In this document: positions 3,813 to 27,014 of the stretch, piece after piece
Position numbering within the stretch: the stretch's first letter is position 1
Layout of the letters: each line of letters opens with the position of its first letter
Origin: a virus
DNA length: 64,000 nucleotides
UHGV virus genome: UHGV-0076294
Reading direction: 5' to 3' (one strand)
Translations under genes and position numbers: made by a program
The notes under the pieces: model-generated
What the model saw: the letters and a program-made list of their open reading frames with translations, nothing else
What the model was told of the DNA's origin: nothing
The model's database searches: none

Positions 3813-3837
3813 AATTAAAAATACTCCGAGGTGAGCA

Positions 3838-4341
3838 ATGGGTTCATTTCTTAAAGTGCTTCCGTTCTTCATTCAGATGTTGATGGAAGCATTTAAACCA
3901 GGAGAAGGAGAGAACGTATCAAGAGCAAACAAGATAATGACTTTAATCATCACGGTCTTGTTATCCTACTCGGCTTTCGTCTCCTATGCGTACGTAGTGC
4001 AGTTTCACAAGCTCGTTACAGTACAATCGCATGATCAATACATGTCGCAATCTTACCAAGAGATGAAGCAAGATCGTGACAAACTGAAAGATGATAATGG
4101 TAGATTATACGACAAGCTCTTTATTTGCCTCGGCCAGAAACCGCCATATGAAAGCGGGTACAGCTCGGTAAAAGAAGACGTCTCTGCCAAAGATTTAACA
4201 CCTAAGAAACCAGAAACTCCTGTTAGCCCAGCTTCAACACCAGAACAACGCAAAGAAGCTTCGGCACGACCTGTTGGTAGTCAAGACGCTAACAGTTTCC
4301 GTCAGGAGATCATAAAGACGTTATCGTCACCTAAGGAGTAA
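3838..4341 (+). CDS. membrane-anchored coiled-coil protein (i-spanin-like topology, function unproven)
   Basis: 167 aa with strong SD GAGGTGA 4 nt upstream. One hydrophobic helix (IMTLIITVLLSYSAFVSYAYVV), then a charged helical segment and a Pro/Ser-rich tail. Confidence 0.75.
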   Translation: MGSFLKVLPFFIQMLMEAFKPGEGENVSRANKIMTLIITVLLSYSAFVSYAYVVQFHKLVTVQSHDQYMSQSYQEMKQDRDKLKDDNGRLYDKLFICLGQKPPYESGYSSVKEDVSAKDLTPKKPETPVSPASTPEQRKEASARPVGSQDANSFRQEIIKTLSSPKE

Positions 4342-8580: not shown

Positions 8581-9123
8581 ATGAAATTACTTATCGATTT
8601 TTCTCTGAGTTCGTCACGCGACAGGCTAAATAAAATACTTACTGAAATGCGAAGTAAAGTGACGTTAGAATTGCACGATGCGATAGCGGTATACGAGAGA
8701 AAGCTAACGAAAGAGAACAACGGGGAGACCGTGGTGATCTTAGACGCTAAAGCGATGGTGGATTTTCTGGTAGACGTTTTAGAAAGACGGATACACGCAG
8801 TGATAGAACGACCCTACCTGGTTCGTGTGACCGACCCAGACACTACGGTAGATTCGATACTGGAAAAAGCATTCGTTGACGCAGCACACTATTTACAAAA
8901 TCATTCCCCAGACGATTTCGAAACGATTTACGTTGGTGTTATACAGCAACAGAATGCTGAAACCAACATAGTCGATACTGTGTGCTGGAGCGATATTCTT
9001 ACTAATGAAACCATGTCTCGCATTCGAGATATCTTTATTGAAAATTTGGCATTAGTAAAAAGGGTGTGTAGTTCCGAGATTATTTATTTATCATCGAAAT
9101 ACGAAAAACCTAAAGGGGTATAA
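8581..9123 (+). CDS. hypothetical protein
   Basis: 180-aa ORF starting 1 nt after the upstream stop. Confidence 0.75.
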   Translation: MKLLIDFSLSSSRDRLNKILTEMRSKVTLELHDAIAVYERKLTKENNGETVVILDAKAMVDFLVDVLERRIHAVIERPYLVRVTDPDTTVDSILEKAFVDAAHYLQNHSPDDFETIYVGVIQQQNAETNIVDTVCWSDILTNETMSRIRDIFIENLALVKRVCSSEIIYLSSKYEKPKGV

Positions 9124-9125
9124 CC

Positions 9126-9650
9126 ATGGATATTTTAATTCAGCTTCGTAAGAAAACAACCATTGCCACGCCGATAGCGTTAGAGGAGAAAATCTCTGGC
9201 GCGGTTGCACGCAAGCTCTGTGGTGCTCACGGCTTTAGCAGTCATCAGGAACAGGTCGTTACTGCCGCCACATTACACAACTTACGGCACACAGTACATT
9301 ACTGTTTAGCTGACAACGTCACCATCACTCTTGATGATGGCGCAGCAGCCGACCAACTGCGTCGTGAAATTGACCACAAGATCGGCGTTTATAAAAGACG
9401 TTTTGATCGTGCCTGTGCACGTTTAACCGATGACAAGGAATTATGGAAACGTTTGAAACTTGAAATTGAGTATGCGGCGCAGCGTTACGGGATTGGCGGT
9501 ACCGAACCGTTGCTGTCCGAACAAGAAATCATGTTAGCAATCGAAGTTTACATCACCGTTTGTATCGCCATCCTGAAAGAAACCGACTACGAAATTACAA
9601 AAGCGTTGTTAAACACCGCAGACAGACTCACCCCAATTTTAGGACAGTAA
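9126..9650 (+). CDS. hypothetical protein
   Basis: 174-aa ORF, SD AAAGGGG upstream, 2-nt spacer. Confidence 0.75.
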   Translation: MDILIQLRKKTTIATPIALEEKISGAVARKLCGAHGFSSHQEQVVTAATLHNLRHTVHYCLADNVTITLDDGAAADQLRREIDHKIGVYKRRFDRACARLTDDKELWKRLKLEIEYAAQRYGIGGTEPLLSEQEIMLAIEVYITVCIAILKETDYEITKALLNTADRLTPILGQ

Positions 9651-9651
9651 A

Positions 9652-10137
9652 ATGAACTTAAATGCAATTATCAATCTCTCTAATAGCGACATTGTCCACG
9701 AGTTTCTGAACCACTGCGATCGCACAGAACAGTCTATCCGTAACATGTTAGCTCCGAAAACAGTGGATGCCATTTGGATAGCTTCACAGGCAGCGGGCGT
9801 TATCGTTGCAAGATATCGCGCGACATTACTAATGAGTCTGGACATTTTCTTCGATCGACCAGGGCCTATTACATGGACTTCTATCGGACGTCGGCTTTAT
9901 GACATACGTATCGAAACCCTACGCTCGATAATTAATGGCTGGCACAACGGGTATATGCCTGACGTAATAGTACCCTACACTGTTCCCGAATGGCGACGCT
10001 TTTATAGTCAGATTTGGAGTAATGAAAGCGTTTATCATGAAATAGTGGCTCTTATCAGTGCTGACCAAAGCCAACTTGCATACCAGCTATGGGAGTGGCT
10101 AAAAGCTAATTATCCTGATTACGTCAAAATCGACTAA
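9652..10137 (+). CDS. hypothetical protein
   Basis: 161-aa ORF with a 1-nt spacer; followed by a terminator at 10143. Confidence 0.75.
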   Translation: MNLNAIINLSNSDIVHEFLNHCDRTEQSIRNMLAPKTVDAIWIASQAAGVIVARYRATLLMSLDIFFDRPGPITWTSIGRRLYDIRIETLRSIINGWHNGYMPDVIVPYTVPEWRRFYSQIWSNESVYHEIVALISADQSQLAYQLWEWLKANYPDYVKID

Positions 10138-21589: not shown

Positions 21590-22054
21590 ATGCGTGGATA
21601 TATTCTCGATCTTGCAATTTCTGTAGAAGAACTTGTGGAAAAACTCGGCGGTACCGGTCATGGGCTTCATGGGAAGACCAAAAGCATAGCTCATATTCTC
21701 GAACCAAAATACGAACGGAAACTCCACATGATTGCTTCCGTTCGCAACAAAGCCGCTCACAGGAGAATTCTTCCTGATCGCATAGACGACTATGAACAGG
21801 CTGTGGAAGAAACGAGGCTCTATTTAGAAGAGCTGATTGGGGAAGAAGAACGGAAACGTCGTTGTGAAGAGGAAATAAATCCCAGCTGTCTGGAACGCGA
21901 AGCGATGTGGAGAGAACGGGCAGACGAGGCCAAACGACGTAACGAAGAGAAAAGATGGGACGATATGAGTGTAATAGAAAAGATAGGTTGGGGTGCCGGT
22001 ATTGCAATCATGGGAGCTGCGGTTGCGTACCTTAAAATAAAGTCTCGTGACTAA
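21590..22054 (+). CDS. small HEPN/DUF4145-like protein (RNKAAH motif) with coiled-coil and C-terminal TM anchor
   Basis: 154 aa from ATG 21590 (SD GGAG 8 nt upstream). LHGKTKSIAHILEPKYERKLHMIASVRNKAAH fits the DUF4145/HEPN pattern and contains Rx4H (21743-21760). Charged EEERKRRCEEE region, then the hydrophobic helix IGWGAGIAIMGAAVAYL. Confidence 0.45.
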   Translation: MRGYILDLAISVEELVEKLGGTGHGLHGKTKSIAHILEPKYERKLHMIASVRNKAAHRRILPDRIDDYEQAVEETRLYLEELIGEEERKRRCEEEINPSCLEREAMWRERADEAKRRNEEKRWDDMSVIEKIGWGAGIAIMGAAVAYLKIKSRD

Positions 22055-22615: not shown

Positions 22616-22924
22616 ATGGAAAACTATTCGGGTTGGGCGATTTCGCAGTGCATTGGCTATTCTTTACGTTCTTTAGTGCGTACACTTTATAACAAAAACT
22701 CGGGTGAAGCTATTACACCGCAGTTATTGGGCAAACTGGAAGTCGAAGTTAACTATAAACTAAAACAGTTACTCGACAACCACGTAAGAACAATGCGTTG
22801 GGAGTTCTTGCTACGTGGTAAGAAGCCTTCAATTACCGTTGTAGCAGAAGGTAGTGAAATCGTACTGCAATCCAACGCAGACCTGTTTGAAATTTTAACT
22901 GAACTAGAAAAGGACAAAATCTAA
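22616..22924 (+). CDS. hypothetical protein
   Basis: 102-aa ORF; its stop overlaps the thyA start (TAATG). Confidence 0.7.
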
Positions 22925-23964
22925 TGAAACAGTATTTAGCGTTAATGCAAGACATTCTGGATAACGGCGTTGTCAAAAAAGACCGTACGGGCGTAGGGAC
23001 ACTTTCTGTATTTGGTCGCCAACTACGTTTTGACCTGAAAGAAGGTTTCCCATTAGTTACTACGAAAAAGGTTCACCTGAAAAGTATCATTCATGAACTG
23101 TTATGGTTCTTGAACGGTGACACTAACGTGAAGTACCTGCAAGAGAATGGGGTAAGAATCTGGAACGAGTGGGCGAATGAAGAAGGGGAATTAGGCCCTG
23201 TCTACGGACACCAGTGGCGAGAATGGATGGATACCAAACTGGTTTATCTTTGGGACGAGCGTAGCAAGGACGTATTGAGAAAACGAGGATATCGCTACGT
23301 TGGGACTATCGCAAAGGACGATCCTGAAGAAAGTATCGTTATTTATCGCAAATCTCACGACCAGATCAGCAAAGTTATCCAGCAACTTCGTGAAGACCCT
23401 GACTCCCGCCGTATTATCGTTAGTGCCTGGAACGTAGCCGACCTAGACGATATGGCACTTAACCCATGTCACAACTATTTCCAATTCTACACAACGGAAA
23501 TGACGTTGCCTGAACGACTGGATTGGTACGAAGTAAACGAACCGGAAAAATTTGCGAACGCACCACTTATTAATCACGAAGATATCGATAGCGAAGAACG
23601 ACTTCACGAAATTTTAGATCGTGAAGGTATCCCACGTCGTAAACTTTCGTGTTTTTACATGATGCGGAGCAACGATTACCTACTCGGCGCGCCGTTTAAC
23701 GTCGCTTCTTACGCGTTGTTAACCCACATGATTGCTCAACAACTCAATATGGTTCCAGACGAGTTAGTTTACAGTGGCGTGGACGTTCATCTGTACTCTA
23801 ACCATCTGGAGCAGGCAAAACTTCAACTTACTCGCGAACCTTACCCGCTACCTAAACTGGTTATCAAACGTAAACCTGATTCTATCTTCGATTACAAATA
23901 CGAAGACTTCGAATTGGTTGGATATCAATCGCACGACACAATTAAAGCTCCCATAGCTGTCTAA
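22924..23964 (+). CDS. thyA: thymidylate synthase (ThyA) with two insertions
   Basis: 346 aa, near-colinear with E. coli ThyA ([83 protein letters not shown]). Catalytic Cys (PCH) and the dUMP-specifying Asn (PFNVASY) are retained. Confidence 0.95.
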
Positions 23965-23971
23965 GGGGTAC

Positions 23972-24268
23972 ATGATGATTAATGAGAAATCGTACGCGGA
24001 GTTAACTTCTTTCGGTATTAGTCGATTAGCTGAACTAAAAACTATCACCGAGCGTGCCGGAATAGCATTGCAGGCCAAAGGTAAGTTTGATCAAGGCGAT
24101 ATCGAAATCTTAGAAAAGATTTCGGCAACGTTAAAAGACTTACGTGTATTGAATATTCTTGTTGGTAAATTGGGTGGCCTAAGTAACAAGAAATTGGCCG
24201 AAATACACGGAGTGACGCCAAGCCGAATATCTCAAATCATCAGCAAGGCCAAACGAGATTTTCAATAA
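23972..24268 (+). CDS. small HTH protein (sigma-70 region-4-like C-terminus)
   Basis: 98 aa. The C-terminal LSNKKLAEIHGVTPSRISQIISKAKRDF is a typical r4/LuxR-type helix-turn-helix. Confidence 0.55.
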   Translation: MMINEKSYAELTSFGISRLAELKTITERAGIALQAKGKFDQGDIEILEKISATLKDLRVLNILVGKLGGLSNKKLAEIHGVTPSRISQIISKAKRDFQ

Positions 24269-24302
24269 GGTTATTTCGCTTGTAGTTAAAAGGAACATTG
24301 AA

Positions 24303-24749
24303 ATGTCTAAAACTCATGTTAACTATAACATCGTAGTAGAAGAATTATCAAAAGGTTTAACCGACCTGGATTCTAAAGATAACCCATTTACCGATCGTTA
24401 TGGAGCCAAAGCTTTATCTGAGTTCCGTACTATCCGCTACGGTACAGGTAGACAGACAGGGCTTACAGACTTTGCTGTCGAGTTAGCTAAGAACCATAAA
24501 GGGAAGGTATTATTCGTTAATCCAAAAGGGTTCTTAGAGGACGATGTGCTATTCCGTTTGGGTCTCGAAGACTTACCGGAGAATATCACCCAAATCATTG
24601 GTTACCAAATGGGTACAGAAAAAGAAAAATACAGCCTTGTTATTGTAGACAACGCTGGGGTTTTCTTTAGCATTTTCCGTTACATGAAGTTCTTTCGCTT
24701 ACTGGCAAACTCAGTAACTAAAGACGTCGTAATACATTTAATGGGTTAA
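24303..24749 (+). CDS. hypothetical protein with degenerate P-loop (GTGRQTGLT) and Walker-B-like LVIVDNA
   Basis: 148-aa ORF, SD AAAGGA. The Walker A lysine position is Leu. Confidence 0.7.
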   Translation: MSKTHVNYNIVVEELSKGLTDLDSKDNPFTDRYGAKALSEFRTIRYGTGRQTGLTDFAVELAKNHKGKVLFVNPKGFLEDDVLFRLGLEDLPENITQIIGYQMGTEKEKYSLVIVDNAGVFFSIFRYMKFFRLLANSVTKDVVIHLMG

Positions 24750-24767
24750 TCAGTGGGGGTTAGTTCT

Positions 24768-24938
24768 ATGGAAGAATTAGAGGCGGTTCCCTGTTACATT
24801 CCTAGAAGAGGTGTTATAAAAGAATGTTTCATCGATCGTATTTTGATCTCTCGTATCAAGAAAGGTCCAAGAAAACATCAAACCAAGAAGGTATTTATTT
24901 ATAAATACTTCGAAAAGATTCTATTCCAACCTTACTGA
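24768..24938 (+). CDS. small basic protein, KGPxK family member 1
   Basis: 56 aa from ATG 24768 (G-rich SD 8 nt upstream; the track start GTG 24753 is the alternative). Motif RIKKGPRKHQTKKVFI. Confidence 0.6.
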   Translation: MEELEAVPCYIPRRGVIKECFIDRILISRIKKGPRKHQTKKVFIYKYFEKILFQPY

Positions 24939-24966
24939 CTAAATTAACTCAGGGAGTAAATTTGCT

Positions 24967-25164
24967 ATGTTAGACGATGTTCTTAATTTCACGATAATGT
25001 ATTTCGAACCGAAGAAGTTCCGTACTATCGCCACACGTTACTGTAAAGGGCCGAACAAAGGACGTAAACGTTTCCAAGTAATTCAACTTGATTATTCCAA
25101 GTTCCTTGTAGCTAATCCATTCGAGCGGAAACCTAATGAAGAAACTGGATTTGGTCAAAATTGA
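24967..25164 (+). CDS. small basic protein, KGPxK family member 2
   Basis: 65 aa, SD GGGAG. Motif RYCKGPNKGRKRFQVI. Confidence 0.6.
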   Translation: MLDDVLNFTIMYFEPKKFRTIATRYCKGPNKGRKRFQVIQLDYSKFLVANPFERKPNEETGFGQN

Positions 25165-25351
25165 TTATCTCGTTGGAGGGGTAATTTTTATCGGTTACGC
25201 GCATAAACGCAAAGGTCCTGGTAAATCCAGGACTCGCGGGTTCCGTATAGTGAAAAGAAACCATAATATTAATCCTCTAATAATGGTCTTAGGAAAGCTA
25301 ACCTTTTTAATTTCAAAACGTGTGCCATCTTTGGTAAAATTTGGAGAGTAA
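25136..25351 (+). CDS. small basic protein, KGPxK family member 3
   Basis: 71 aa, overlapping the upstream gene by 29 nt. Motif HKRKGPGKSRTRGFRIV. Confidence 0.55.
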   Translation: MKKLDLVKIDYLVGGVIFIGYAHKRKGPGKSRTRGFRIVKRNHNINPLIMVLGKLTFLISKRVPSLVKFGE

Positions 25352-25353
25352 AA

Positions 25354-25497
25354 ATGACTGAAGAAGTTAAAGTAGAAACCGTTAAAGAAACTGACGAATT
25401 TGCAATCCCTGGCTTAGACCCGGAAGCTACTGTAGAGAAGGGTGCTGACCCAACCACGGAAGACGATAACTGCTCAGGCGGGGCTTGCAAAATTTAA
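25354..25497 (+). CDS. 47-aa highly acidic peptide ending in CSGGACKI (below the ORF-track size cut-off)
   Basis: ATG 25354 with SD GGAGAG 5 nt upstream, 2 nt after the upstream stop. Translation: MTEEVKVETVKETDEFAIPGLDPEATVEKGADPTTEDDNCSGGACKI*. Followed by the hairpin at 25506. Confidence 0.55.
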   Translation: MTEEVKVETVKETDEFAIPGLDPEATVEKGADPTTEDDNCSGGACKI

Positions 25498-25505
25498 CAG
25501 TTCAC

Positions 25506-25542
25506 GGGGTGCTTATGTAGCACCCCTAATCCTTATTCTTTT
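25506..25542 (+). terminator. hairpin/terminator closing the small-gene islet
   Basis: GGGGTGCT tatgt AGCACCCC. The T-run (CTTTTTT) begins about 10 nt downstream, so efficiency is uncertain. Confidence 0.5.
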
Positions 25543-25565
25543 TTGTTAATCTAATGGAGTTTAAA

Positions 25566-26396
25566 ATGGGCGAACGTTTTGACATCAACGCTATCTACAA
25601 CATCGTAGTTAATCCTGGTCAACACCTGGAAGAAGTTAATGCACAACTGCGTGCTCTGAACGAGAAAGCGATTCAGTTTGATGCTATCTACACCATCGGC
25701 GTAAATCCTGGTACTAACCGTGTTCGTGTAGAAGGTAAACGCCACACCGGTAATCAGGAACTGGACATTGAAACGATCGAAGCCCCGATTAAACTTACCG
25801 ATGCCGAATATAACGGTACAGTAATGCACACCGTATCGGTTCCGGTCTACTCTATCGAGAACTGTGTAGAACGTGTTAAAGGTTGGTCTAAAGAACGTGG
25901 TATTCTCGACAACGGTAAACTGGAAACACAAATCACGAAGTTCTTTGAAGAGTTTGGTGAAATCGCAACAGGTATCAGCAAAAACAAACCTGAACTGATC
26001 ATGGACGGTATCGGCGATGCGTTAGTGGTTCTGGTGAACATTCTGGAACTGGGTAAAGAATACCATGACGAATACTTAACAACGGCCGATATTATTAGTA
26101 GCGGTTTAACTATGCAACTTCGTGATGTTGCAAATGTTGAAGCTTGTGCAAACGATCATAAATTCCCACATCGAAAATACCTGGAAGCAACTAATTCTTT
26201 TTCCACGTCTTTCTTAAATACTAACAAAGACGATAACCTGTTCGATCATGGTTTGTATTGCCTTGCTTGTCTCGCGCTGTATTACAAACTGGACATTCGC
26301 CATTGCTTCTCTTTAGCCTGGCACGAAATCAAAGACCGTAAAGGTTACCTGAACGCCGACGGCATCTTTGTAAAAGATGCAGACTTGGCGAAATAA
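25566..26396 (+). CDS. MazG-like nucleoside triphosphate pyrophosphohydrolase with repeat-containing N-terminal domain
   Basis: ATG 25566 has GGAG 5 nt upstream; the track start 25554 lacks an SD. MazG blocks FFEEFGEIATG and DGIGDALVVLVNILE. N-terminal duplicated FD..AIY.I.VNPG. Confidence 0.65.
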   Translation: MGERFDINAIYNIVVNPGQHLEEVNAQLRALNEKAIQFDAIYTIGVNPGTNRVRVEGKRHTGNQELDIETIEAPIKLTDAEYNGTVMHTVSVPVYSIENCVERVKGWSKERGILDNGKLETQITKFFEEFGEIATGISKNKPELIMDGIGDALVVLVNILELGKEYHDEYLTTADIISSGLTMQLRDVANVEACANDHKFPHRKYLEATNSFSTSFLNTNKDDNLFDHGLYCLACLALYYKLDIRHCFSLAWHEIKDRKGYLNADGIFVKDADLAK

Positions 26397-26404
26397 ATAA
26401 AAGT

Positions 26405-26450
26405 ACCTACCTCCTTTCGGAGGTAGGTTAACTTTCTTATTTTTTCTTTT
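26405..26450. terminator. bidirectional terminator, stem ACCTACCTCC/GGAGGTAGGT
   Basis: 10-bp stem, UUUC loop, T-rich tail, A-rich 5' flank, between convergent genes. Confidence 0.8.
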
Positions 26451-27014
26451 TTAAGCGCCAGGAACAATTCCAGAAGAGATATACGTCAAACCGTCAAGTT
26501 CGGTGACTTTAATCAACTTCGAAATGTCCTTACCGTCAGACGGCAGCTCTGTTAAGTACACCTCCAGCCGACCTGTCCACGCCAAAGATCTCCCATTCAT
26601 GATAATGATGGTTTTATCTTTGCTGTCTGGTGCAGCTGTTGGGTTCTCAACTTCGTCGTCGGTAATCTGTAAATTGTACTTATTGCGGAAAAGTTGTAGT
26701 ACCTCAGATACCGTAGTCGCATTAACACCCGCAACAGAAACTACAAAGTCACCTAAGAGGTGCTCTAAATCCAATCGACGATAAATAACGTCGATTTTAC
26801 CAAATGTTTTCTGCTCGATGATACCCTGGACGCTAAGTTGAGTATTTAATCGTGTAAATTGAGTTTCTGGTGTTTCTACCGCAGGAATATGTGACGGCGT
26901 GCCAAAATCCAACTTATCGATTGTAATACCTTTATCTACCAAACCTGGATTCTTTTTTACTAATAACTCATAAACCAGTTGTTTTCCTGATTTACCTAAT
27001 AGCGTATTAGCCAT
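26451..27014 (-). CDS. hypothetical protein (last gene of the minus-strand virion operon)
   Basis: 187-aa ORF, SD GAGGGAAGG; followed by a bidirectional terminator. Confidence 0.75.
   Translation of the reverse strand: MANTLLGKSGKQLVYELLVKKNPGLVDKGITIDKLDFGTPSHIPAVETPETQFTRLNTQLSVQGIIEQKTFGKIDVIYRRLDLEHLLGDFVVSVAGVNATTVSEVLQLFRNKYNLQITDDEVENPTAAPDSKDKTIIIMNGRSLAWTGRLEVYLTELPSDGKDISKLIKVTELDGLTYISSGIVPGA

What the first reader, a model, noticed from the sequence alone, without database searches (positions are those of the whole stretch)
24768..25351. Three tandem 56-71 aa basic paralogs sharing a [KR]KGPxKxxx[KR]xF core
RIKKGPRKHQTKKVFI, RYCKGPNKGRKRFQVI and HKRKGPGKSRTRGFRIV occur at the same relative position in three consecutive ORFs. 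Each is preceded by a hydrophobic strand-like segment and followed by a Y/F-x-K-hydrophobic element and a Pro. Genes 2 and 3 overlap by 29 nt. Local triplication of a tiny, highly basic (probably nucleic-acid-binding) protein is unusual, and I do not recognise the family.
Basis: seen in the sequence. Interest (0 to 1): 0.55.

Follow-up and report, generated by a model that had tools for sequence, protein, structure and literature searches.

The report
Fast-evolving small basic phage gene triplet
Three adjacent tiny genes in a giant enterobacterial phage really do encode related, very basic proteins of an otherwise unknown, rapidly changing family. Their most telling feature is that they are translationally coupled, and in many relatives fused, to a small acidic peptide that copies the redox-active tail of the host's ribonucleotide reductase.

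Summary
ORF1 (24768-24938), ORF2 (24967-25164) and ORF3 (25136-25351) share an R-x-x-K-G-P-x-K basic core at the same relative position, and ORF2 and ORF3 overlap by 29 nt.

The genes look real:
- pN/pS is 0.28-0.45 in the called frames and about 1 in the other frames.
- The ORFs stay open across strongly diverged alleles.
- Each has a Shine-Dalgarno-like site, and their starts and stops overlap.

Paralogy is supported only moderately (hhalign P of 7.6e-5, 1.6e-3 and 0.018).

The family is an orphan. A profile search of 1.84 billion proteins found it only in one clade of ~222-230 kb jumbo phages, probably the proposed genus 'Bapsvirus'. It matches no Pfam, PHROG, NCBIfam, PADLOC or PDB entry, and AlphaFold2 gave no confident fold.

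The genes sit in a hypervariable insertion inside a nucleotide-metabolism operon. Copy number ranges from 1 to 3.

ORF3 is the constant copy. It is coupled to the next gene, and fused to it in about 29% of member sequences. That gene is a 47-aa acidic peptide ending DDNCSGGACKI, which matches the E. coli NrdA tail DDGCESGACKI.

My best reading is that these are basic partner modules of that tail mimic, amplified by tandem duplication. The biochemical function is untested. Interest is moderate.

The parts
24768..24938 (+). ORF1, 56 aa (alternative GTG start at 24753 gives 61 aa). This is the rarest copy of the KGP family. Core R29-K41 = 24852-24890.
   Evidence: GGGGG lies 8 nt upstream of the ATG. 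Present in only 3 of 16 loci compared (window, L003, L016; L007 duplicates the window and was not analysed). There are 5 allele clusters. pN/pS is 0.45 but from only 2 sequences. hhalign to the ORF2 family gives P = 7.6e-5.
24967..25164 (+). ORF2, 65 aa, KGP family. Core R24-F36 = 25036-25074. Its last 29 nt overlap ORF3.
   Evidence: AGGGAG lies 11 nt upstream. In the relatives compared: 7 distinct type-A alleles (pN/pS 0.39 in frame vs 1.06 and 1.17 out of frame) and 4 type-B alleles (0.28). The 57-aa alleles end in an ATGA stop/start overlap with ORF3.
25136..25351 (+). ORF3, 71 aa, the constant copy of the KGP family. Core H23-F36 = 25202-25243.
   Evidence: Present in every locus examined, with its core deleted only in L011. 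pN/pS is 0.33 (11 alleles) and 0.40. It is fused in frame to the downstream peptide in L006, L013, L019 and L030-L032, and in 8 protein clusters of 120-121 aa.
25354..25497 (+). 47-aa acidic peptide (pI 4.05) ending DDNCSGGACKI*. It is the functional neighbour, and in relatives the fusion partner, of ORF3. Its end copies the C-terminal Cys-x4-Cys tail of E. coli NrdA.
   Evidence: phrog_14561, 38753, 24014; ortholog of EC001 MGA_232 and ChrisDB gp256. The E. coli NrdA end reads ...IQDDGCESGACKI*. pN/pS is 0.09. The family is widespread.
24303..24749 (+). Conserved 148-aa gene (phrog_2586) that forms the upstream border of the insertion.
   Evidence: ortholog of EC001 MGA_231 and ChrisDB gp255. 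In those phages it directly abuts the tail-peptide gene. It is absent in L030-L032, where thyA is followed directly by ORF2 and the ORF3-tail fusion.
25506..25544 (+). GC-rich hairpin (GGGGTGC / GCACCCC) followed by a T-rich stretch after the tail-peptide gene. It probably marks the end of the transcription unit.
   Evidence: Read from the sequence. It is conserved in relatives. The terminator scan did not call it because the T-run starts more than 2 nt after the stem.

Best explanation
The three ORFs are genuine, translated, rapidly evolving paralogous genes of an orphan family of small basic proteins. The predicted architecture is a short N-terminal beta-meander with an R-x-x-K-G-P-x-K-x-[RK]-x-[RK] basic loop.

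The family exists only in one clade of enterobacterial nucleus-forming-type jumbo phages, probably the proposed genus 'Bapsvirus'. It occupies a hypervariable insertion in the thyA-MazG nucleotide-metabolism operon.

ORF3 is the original, constant copy. It is the N-terminal partner of the conserved acidic peptide that copies the redox-active Cys-x4-Cys C-terminal tail of host RNR subunit NrdA. The two are translationally coupled in the window and form a single 120-aa polypeptide in many relatives. ORF2 and ORF1 are tandem duplicates of that module.

Inferred mechanism: the basic KGP module acts together with the acidic tail mimic. It would serve as an electrostatic partner or targeting domain that binds a polyanion (RNA, DNA or an acidic protein surface). 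This would localise or regulate a peptide that engages the host thioredoxin/glutaredoxin-RNR redox relay during infection by a phage that has no RNR of its own.

Shown here: coding status, family limits, copy-number variation, coupling and fusion, and the tail similarity. Inferred only: binding activity, partnership in function, and any effect on RNR.
For: Coding:
- Frame-specific pN/pS is 0.28-0.45 against about 1 in the other frames.
- The ORFs stay open across highly diverged alleles.
- Codon-usage scores are positive only in the called frames.
- Shine-Dalgarno-like sites are present.
- K-G-P is kept with synonymous third-base variation.

Paralogy:
- Alignments A3 and A4 and hhalign P of 7.6e-5, 1.6e-3 and 0.018.
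- ORF1 and the ORF2 type-B alleles share a 7-residue insertion.

Orphan status:
- 61 clusters, those with long contigs being ~222-230 kb.
- 8 representatives among 1.84e9 proteins.
- This locus is the only one in a complete 221,873-bp relative genome.

Insertion and hypervariability:
- In Seoulvirus and Machinavirus the two flanking genes are adjacent.
- The window and E. coli p98232 are collinear at 86-97% nt identity (93-97% outside thyA) over 49 kb, except at a few islands that include 24750-25297.

Link to the tail mimic:
- ATGA stop/start overlaps chain ORF2 to ORF3 to the tail peptide.
- In-frame ORF3-tail fusions occur in 8 clusters, 81 of 284 member sequences.
- The one-copy genome L019 has only the fusion.
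- L030-L032 lack the 148-aa gene but keep ORF2 plus the fusion.
- The charges are complementary: +13 for ORF3 and -9 for the tail peptide.

Tail mimicry and absence of RNR.
Against: - There is no direct translation evidence. PGAP left the interval unannotated in two complete records.
- Codon usage is at or below the 5th percentile of bona fide genes.
- Similarity of ORF3 to the other two rests mostly on the short basic motif. Subfamily HMMs do not cross-hit significantly, with E of 0.26-6.5.
- AlphaFold2 gives no confident fold and shows no contact between the KGP module and the tail.
- Tail-peptide homologs in other phages and in Neisseria work without any KGP module. Their N-terminal extensions are not homologous to it.
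- ORF3 has lost its core in L011 while the tail gene is intact.
- Some fusions differ from the split form only by the length of an A-run. They could be neutral slippage products or homopolymer sequencing errors.
- Gene adjacency in a phage operon is weak evidence for joint function.
Confidence: 0.45

Rival explanations
1. These are independent accessory genes. The KGP proteins would be fast-evolving host-takeover or anti-defence factors, typical of hyperplastic regions of large phages. Their position next to the tail mimic would be incidental, and the fusions would be by-products of an unstable A-run at the gene junction.
For: - dN is about 8-fold higher than in the flanking genes (0.10-0.12 vs 0.012-0.014).
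- Copy number varies from 1 to 3 and alleles are mosaic, for example P0048.
- The same site also accepts unrelated inserts: a 129-aa ORF in L011 and the 98-aa HTH ORF nearby.
- A mobile group I intron with a GIY-YIG endonuclease in thyA of relatives marks the region as a recombination hot spot.
- Fused and split alleles can differ only in A-run length.
Against: - There are no hits to PADLOC or to any annotated anti-defence PHROG.
- The stop/start coupling chain and the fusions recur across diverged alleles, including A4-type junctions with extra substitutions that are not simple homopolymer errors.
- The module stays attached to the tail gene even where the upstream 148-aa gene is lost.
Confidence: 0.3
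2. The peptide products are unimportant. The ORFs would be decaying duplicates, or upstream ORFs whose translation only delivers ribosomes to the tail-peptide gene by translational coupling.
For: - Constraint is relaxed (pN/pS 0.3-0.45) and codon usage is marginal.
- ORF1 and ORF2 are dispensable in many genomes, and the ORF3 core is deleted in L011.
- The C-terminal halves vary freely in length and sequence.
- PGAP does not call them.
Against: - pN/pS is clearly below 1 only in the called frame.
- R-x-x-K-G-P-x-K and the preceding hydrophobic strands are retained in about 60 allele clusters and three paralog lineages, despite heavy divergence elsewhere.
- No allele has internal stops.
- A pure coupling device would not need a conserved peptide motif.
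Confidence: 0.12
3. The repeated motif is a nucleic-acid element rather than a protein motif. Candidates are a repeated DNA site or structured RNA, or remnants of a mobile element such as a homing endonuclease or MITE.
For: - AAAGGNCC recurs three times (family D4).
- The region is an insertion next to an intron-bearing thyA.
Against: - No DNA repeat family extends beyond a 15-nt match, and there is no tandem repeat.
- Rfam gives no hit at E <= 1.
- The motif is in frame with a different ORF each time.
- The third codon positions of G and P vary while the amino acids are kept.
- Substitutions show codon periodicity.
- There is no Pfam or PHROG hit to GIY-YIG, HNH or NUMOD.
- There is no tblastn similarity to the 255-277-aa genes of Seoulvirus or Machinavirus that might have decayed here.
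Confidence: 0.04

Closest known systems
Small ORFan paralog families in hyperplastic (hypervariable) regions of large lytic phages, such as the T4-like plastic regions (from general knowledge)
   Same: - The genes are tiny, fast-evolving and vary in copy number.
- They sit between conserved core genes in otherwise collinear genomes.
- They lie near a mobile group I intron and homing endonuclease in thyA of relatives.
   Different: - The copies are paralogs of one another.
- They are chained by stop/start overlaps to a conserved downstream gene, and in many genomes fused to it.
- No flanking promoter-stem-loop repeats were found.
C-terminal tail of bacterial ribosomal protein uS13 (...ARTRKGPRK...)
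   Same: ORF2 alleles of relatives read T-R-x-R-K-G-P-R-K-G-R-K-R. This matches 8 of 13 positions of the uS13 tail, a basic RNA-contacting extension. uS13 is the only PDB sequence touched by the family profile.
   Different: - The hit is not significant (E = 4.3). It is not reproduced with single sequences or in the 1.84e9-protein search.
- There is no S13 domain.
- The motif is internal here rather than C-terminal.
- The window's own ORF2 reads CKGPNK.
- This is a lead for RNA binding and not evidence of membership.
Class Ia ribonucleotide reductase alpha subunit (NrdA) C-terminal redox tail. This concerns the neighbour and fusion partner, not the KGP proteins themselves.
   Same: The 47-aa peptide ends DDNCSGGACKI* and E. 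coli NrdA ends DDGCESGACKI*. Eight of the last 11 residues are identical, both Cys of the Cys-x4-Cys pair are included, and both lie at the extreme C-terminus.
   Different: - The peptide is free-standing or fused to a KGP module, and is not attached to an RNR catalytic barrel.
- A complete relative genome has no NrdA homolog and no annotated Trx or Grx.
- Redox activity is untested.
Small basic beta-sheet nucleic-acid binders with a basic hairpin loop (HU/IHF arms, Cren7/Sso7d type; recalled from memory)
   Same: The size is similar (55-75 aa) and the pI is high. Predicted beta-strands flank a basic Gly/Pro loop.
   Different: There is no sequence or profile match. The models are low-confidence, so no fold comparison was justified.

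Membership tests
   hhalign of allele profiles gives P = 7.6e-5 (ORF1-ORF2), 1.6e-3 (ORF2-ORF3) and 0.018 (ORF1-ORF3). Smith-Waterman against shuffles gives p = 0.02, 0.06 and 0.0075. Support is moderate, and weakest for ORF3. Subfamily HMMs alone are not significant, and BLASTP finds nothing.
   pN/pS is 0.28-0.45 in frame and about 1 in the shifted frames. The ORFs are intact in the relatives' loci compared. Codon score is positive only in frame. ORF1 rests on only 2 DNA alleles.
   No ribosome profiling or proteomics is available. There are only Shine-Dalgarno-like sites and stop/start overlaps.
Ribosomal protein uS13 (PF00416), C-terminal tail motif | S13 domain present | tested here: not met
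   There is no Pfam hit at E <= 1.
Ribosomal protein uS13 (PF00416), C-terminal tail motif | Significant match of the R-x-R-K-G-P-R-K tail | tested here: inconclusive
   The PDB profile hit to uS13 has E = 4.3. It is absent from the single-sequence searches.
HU/IHF-like DNA-binding proteins (PF00216) | Profile match or a confidently predicted beta-arm fold | tested here: not met
   There is no Pfam or PHROG hit. AlphaFold2 pLDDT is 56 and 47.5.
Homing endonuclease remnants (GIY-YIG / HNH / NUMOD) | Catalytic or NUMOD motifs detectable | tested here: not met
   There are no Pfam or PHROG hits. A genuine GIY-YIG/NUMOD3-like ORF exists in the thyA intron of relative L015, but it shows no resemblance on reading.
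Known anti-defence or defence proteins (PADLOC) and NCBIfam families | Profile match | tested here: not met
   There were zero hits at E <= 1.
Class Ia RNR NrdA C-terminal tail (neighbour and fusion partner) | Cys-x4-Cys within ...DDxCxxGACKI at the extreme C-terminus | tested here: met
   The window peptide ends DDNCSGGACKI*. E. coli NrdA ends DDGCESGACKI*. tblastn of NrdA on the relative genome hits only residues 747-761.
Class Ia RNR NrdA C-terminal tail (neighbour and fusion partner) | Part of an RNR alpha subunit | tested here: not met
   It is a 47-aa free-standing gene. There is no NrdA homolog in the 221,873-bp relative genome.
Class Ia RNR NrdA C-terminal tail (neighbour and fusion partner) | Dithiol shuttle reduced by thioredoxin or glutaredoxin | not testable with these tools
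   This needs biochemistry.

The most novel reading that the evidence does not exclude
The KGP module and the NrdA-tail-like peptide together would form a previously undescribed two-part host-mimicry device in an RNR-less jumbo phage. One part is a redox-active decoy or surrogate of the host RNR C-terminal tail, which would tap or redirect the thioredoxin/glutaredoxin-RNR electron relay. The other part is a rapidly diversifying basic, uS13-tail-like RNA- or polyanion-binding domain that targets or gates the decoy. Gene fission and fusion at an A-run, plus tandem amplification, would tune the dosage.
Probability: 0.12. Interest if true: 0.75.

Novelty: new variant of a known kind. Interest (0 to 1): 0.4.

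Why it matters
Taken alone, the triplet is one more orphan family of small phage proteins, and its value is mainly for annotation. PGAP currently leaves these genes uncalled in complete E. coli and Enterobacter records.

What raises it above routine is the company it keeps. It is the variable N-terminal partner of a conserved, apparently undescribed free-standing copy of the host NrdA redox tail, in a phage that makes dTMP itself but has no RNR.

If the pair acts on the host RNR/thioredoxin system, it would be a new way for a virus to manipulate dNTP supply. The natural fused, split and 1-3-copy alleles would then serve as ready-made genetic variants for testing this.

Tried and rejected
- **Close phage relatives.** Megablast of 23900-26500 against 50,697 phage records found no match. 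The context came instead from tblastn with MazG.
- **Frameshifted pseudogene.** I asked whether the 600 bp is a decayed copy of the 255-277-aa gene found at the equivalent place in Seoulvirus and Machinavirus. tblastn gave no similarity, and the flanking genes are simply adjacent there.
- **DNA-level repeat or tandem duplication still visible in DNA.** Only 11-23-nt chance-like matches were found.
- **Structured RNA.** Rfam gave no hit at E <= 1.
- **Known protein families.** Pfam, PHROGs, NCBIfam and PADLOC gave nothing.
- **Solved structures.** The PDB profile search touched only the uS13 tail at E = 4.3. One single-sequence search gave a non-significant STI-1 match at E = 0.19, and the other gave nothing.
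- **Remote homologs.** A profile search of 1.84e9 proteins found only the same clade plus one spurious repeat protein, P0063.
- **Structure prediction.** AlphaFold2 with family alignments gave pLDDT 56.4 and 47.5, and the two models placed the strands inconsistently. I therefore did not run fold search, because matches to such models would be meaningless.
- **Common origin with other tail proteins.** I tested whether the KGP module is homologous to the N-terminal extensions of tail-peptide proteins in other phages (MSGKDLSxYLVxG..GRGLT). hhalign gave probability 0.1%, so I rejected this.
- **Extra paralogs elsewhere.** There are none in the window or in a complete relative genome.
- **GTDB representative genomes.** A scan with the 148-aa neighbour returned nothing.
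- **Literature.** Searches for a free NrdA-tail peptide in phages found nothing relevant.
Full report
**1. What is in the sequence**

- ORF1 runs 24768-24938 and is 56 aa. A GTG at 24753 would give 61 aa.
- ORF2 runs 24967-25164 and is 65 aa.
- ORF3 runs 25136-25351 and is 71 aa.

ORF2 and ORF3 overlap by 29 nt, and each ORF is in a different frame. The quoted peptides are present, and K-G-P starts at residues 32, 27 and 26. The proteins are strongly basic, with pI 9.7, 9.7 and 11.2 and net charge +7, +5 and +13. Each start has a purine-rich Shine-Dalgarno-like site upstream.

**2. Is the similarity more than chance?**

The evidence points the same way but is moderate:
- K-G-P-x-K occurs only three times in all six frames of the 64 kb, and all three are here within 351 nt.
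- Second-order Markov random windows average 0.37 occurrences. None of 300 had two within 400 nt. The motif was picked after inspection, so this test is generous.
- Pairwise Smith-Waterman scores beat shuffles at p = 0.02, 0.06 and 0.0075. BLASTP reports nothing.
- With allele profiles from relatives, hhalign gives P = 7.6e-5 (ORF1-ORF2), 1.6e-3 (ORF2-ORF3) and 0.018 (ORF1-ORF3).
- Subfamily HMMs do not cross-hit significantly (E of 0.26-6.5). The cross-hits still rank in the top 4-8 of 6,233 ORFs.
- ORF1 and the type-B alleles of ORF2 share a 7-residue insertion at the same place.

Given the tandem arrangement as well, paralogy is likely. It is firm for ORF1 and ORF2 and weaker for ORF3.

**3. 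Are they genes?**

Relatives were recovered from several sources:
- four IMG/VR contigs;
- nine metagenome or isolate-assembly contigs;
- a complete circular 221,873-bp 'plasmid' of E. coli 98232;
- a 222,441-bp 'plasmid' of Enterobacter ludwigii;
- three further assemblies.

In all of them the small ORFs stay open despite heavy divergence. Several lines of evidence support coding:
- pN/pS in the called frame is 0.45 (ORF1, only 2 alleles), 0.39 (ORF2 type A, 7 alleles), 0.28 (ORF2 type B), 0.33 (ORF3 main type, 11 alleles) and 0.40 (ORF3 window type).
- The two shifted frames give about 1 for ORF2 and ORF3 (0.81-1.41). ORF1 gives 0.60 and 1.96. The flanking genes give 0.07 and 0.09.
- Codon-usage log-odds are positive only in the called frames (0.06-0.16). 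Out-of-frame values are -0.29 to -0.56. However, 0.06-0.16 lies at or below the 5th percentile of long genes, which average 0.34 with sd 0.11.
- The Gly and Pro codons of the motif vary synonymously among copies and alleles.

I conclude they are protein-coding, under real but relaxed constraint, and evolving about 8-fold faster at non-synonymous sites than their neighbours. PGAP annotated nothing in this interval in either complete record. No direct translation evidence exists.

**4. Genomic setting**

By MazG similarity (about 42% aa) the window belongs to a jumbo phage distantly related to Seoulvirus (SPN3US) and to Erwinia Machinavirus-type phages, with conserved synteny. That assignment is an inference.

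The local gene order is:
- thyA (22924-23964);
- a 98-aa HTH ORF;
- a 148-aa gene (phrog_2586);
- ORF1, ORF2 and ORF3;
- a 47-aa acidic peptide (25354-25497);
- a hairpin;
- MazG (25554-26396).

In Seoulvirus and Machinavirus the orthologs of the 148-aa gene and the acidic peptide are only 7-12 nt apart. The three ORFs therefore occupy a clade-specific insertion of about 600 bp.

The window and the E. coli 'plasmid' are collinear at 86-97% nt identity (93-97% outside thyA) over 49 kb. The exceptions are a few islands, one of which is 24750-25297.

**5. Variation of the array**

Across 16 loci the copy number is:
- three copies in the window, L003 and L016;
- two copies in most loci, which lack ORF1;
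- one copy in L019.

ORF3 is always present, although its core is deleted in L011. Alleles are mosaic. P0048, for example, joins a type-A N-terminus to a type-B C-terminus.

The family HMM finds no other copy in the window or in the complete relative genome. A word-indexed search of 5.8e9 proteins returned 61 clusters, those with long contigs being ~222-230 kb. An exhaustive profile search of 1.84e9 representatives returned only 8 family members plus one spurious repeat protein. Nothing matches in Pfam, PHROGs, NCBIfam, PADLOC or PDB. It is a clade-restricted orphan family.

**6. The informative neighbour**

The 47-aa peptide ends ...DPTTEDDNCSGGACKI*. E. coli NrdA ends ...VPSIQDDGCESGACKI*. 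Eight of the last 11 residues are identical, including both cysteines of the C-terminal Cys-x4-Cys pair. From established RNR biochemistry, that pair shuttles electrons from thioredoxin or glutaredoxin to the active site.

The peptide family is conserved in Seoulvirus and many Erwinia jumbo phages. It also occurs in Neisseria chromosomes, where it lies downstream of a DUF3079 gene.

The complete relative genome encodes ThyA, DHFR, MazG and an NT5C nucleotidase. It has no NrdA homolog beyond this 15-residue tail, and no annotated thioredoxin or glutaredoxin. I found no description of such a free tail peptide in the searchable literature.

**7. Link between the KGP genes and that peptide**

- The genes are chained by stop/start overlaps. 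ORF2 to ORF3 uses ATGA, TGATG or the 29-nt overlap. ORF3 to the peptide uses ATGA or a 2-nt gap.
- In L006, L013, L019 and L030-L032, ORF3 and the peptide form one in-frame protein of 120-121 aa. The same is true in eight protein clusters, which hold 81 of 284 ORF3-type member sequences.
- Some fused and split alleles differ only in the length of an A-run at the junction. Others (GGAACTAAAATGTCT) carry additional substitutions, so they are not simple homopolymer errors.
- The single-copy genome has only the fusion.
- L030-L032 have lost the 148-aa gene but keep ORF2 plus the fusion directly after thyA.
- The charges are complementary: +13 for ORF3 and -9 for the peptide.

This is a 'Rosetta-stone' type argument for joint function. 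It is suggestive and is not proof.

**8. Structure and mechanism**

AlphaFold2 with family alignments gave only low-confidence models (pLDDT 56.4 and 47.5). They show short beta-strands before and after the K-G-P loop and no contact between the module and the tail. I did not run fold searches on such models.

The only PDB sequence touched by the family profile is the C-terminal RNA-contacting tail of ribosomal protein uS13 (ARTRKGPRK), at a non-significant E of 4.3. I treat this as a lead.

My committed reading has three parts:
- ORF3 is the basic N-terminal partner module of the NrdA-tail mimic.
- ORF2 and ORF1 are tandem duplicates of it.
- The module binds a polyanion (RNA, DNA or an acidic protein surface) and thereby localises or regulates a peptide that engages the host Trx/Grx-RNR relay.

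Confidence is about 0.85 that these are real paralogous genes. It is about 0.45 for the partnership and about 0.3 for the binding mode.

**9. Rivals**

- Independent fast-evolving accessory or anti-defence genes in a recombination hot spot (0.3). In support, relatives carry a mobile group I intron in thyA (RF00028, 64.8 bits, L013). L015 has a GIY-YIG/NUMOD3-like intron ORF. thyA itself is only 82-98% identical among relatives, and unrelated inserts use the same site.
- Products unimportant, either decaying duplicates or coupling uORFs (0.12).
- A nucleic-acid-level repeat or mobile-element remnant (0.04). This is contradicted by codon periodicity, synonymous variation in the motif, and the absence of Rfam hits and DNA repeats.

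**10. Verdict**

The triplet alone is an ordinary kind of thing, a small orphan paralog family in a variable region of a large phage. Its recurrent coupling and fusion to a free-standing copy of the host RNR redox tail is the part worth an experiment.

Noticed in passing
window 25354-25497 (+): A 47-aa acidic peptide ends DDNCSGGACKI*. This is nearly identical to the extreme C-terminus of E. coli NrdA (DDGCESGACKI*), which holds the redox-shuttle Cys-x4-Cys tail. The family is conserved in Seoulvirus and Erwinia jumbo phages and also occurs as 43-52-aa genes in Neisseria chromosomes. A complete relative genome has no NrdA, thioredoxin or glutaredoxin. I found no description of it in the literature searched.
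   Followed up: partly
L013 1392-1624; L015 345-1154; compare window thyA 22924-23964: thyA of some relatives is interrupted at about codon 250 by a group I intron (RF00028, 64.8 bits). In L015 the insertion is larger and encodes a 269-aa GIY-YIG protein with NUMOD3-like repeats. The window's thyA has no intron. ThyA is only 82-98% identical among relatives whose neighbouring genes are 95-100% identical, which suggests homing-associated gene conversion.
   Followed up: partly
window 23972-24268 (+): A 98-aa ORF with a C-terminal sigma-70-region-4/HTH-like segment (weak Pfam hits) is present in the window, L003, L015, L016 and L019. It is absent from most other relatives, including the two complete 'plasmid' records.
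   Followed up: partly
NZ_CP173450.1 (E. coli 98232, 221,873 bp, circular) and NZ_CP134650.1 (Enterobacter ludwigii, 222,441 bp): Near-complete relatives of this jumbo phage are deposited as plasmids of bacterial isolates. This is consistent with the 'bacterial assembly-associated phage' or carrier-state reports (PMC12768965). PGAP leaves the ~390-bp KGP interval unannotated in both records.
   Followed up: partly
junction of ORF3 and the tail gene: window 25340-25360; L005 ~3825-3842; L006 ~3825-3840; L017: The junction contains an A-run of variable length (A4, A6, A7 or longer). Its length decides whether ORF3 and the tail peptide are separate, overlapping (ATGA) or fused. This could be replication or transcription slippage, or in part homopolymer sequencing error.
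   Followed up: no
L011 (CYGL01004059.1, 2.4 kb) vs L019 (CYGL01000001.1, 228 kb): Two contigs of the same assembly carry different versions of the locus. One has only the ORF3-tail fusion. The other has an extra unrelated 129-aa ORF, ORF2, and an ORF3 with its KGP core deleted. This suggests mixed phage variants within one sample.
   Followed up: no
P0055 (83 aa): This chimeric protein joins a fragment resembling the N-terminus of the 148-aa gene (MTKTHVSHNIAVEDL..DLDSKDNP) to a full ORF1. It is evidence of deletion or recombination between the upstream gene and ORF1 in some genome.
   Followed up: no
window 24303-24749 (+): The 148-aa phrog_2586 protein contains sequences that look like a degenerate Walker A (YGTGRQTGLT) and Walker B (SLVIVDNAG) when read by eye. 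It is missing altogether from L030-L032.
   Followed up: no
window 9099-9988, 21888-21944 and 26059-26252: These are further short islands where the window and E. coli p98232 do not align, despite 93-97% identity around them. One of them lies inside the MazG gene.
   Followed up: no
L027 4585-4869 and 5001-5132 (Neisseria chromosome CP091510.1): The Neisseria homolog of the tail peptide lies about 130 nt downstream of a Cys-rich DUF3079 gene and not near nrdAB. The function of this pair is unknown.
   Followed up: no
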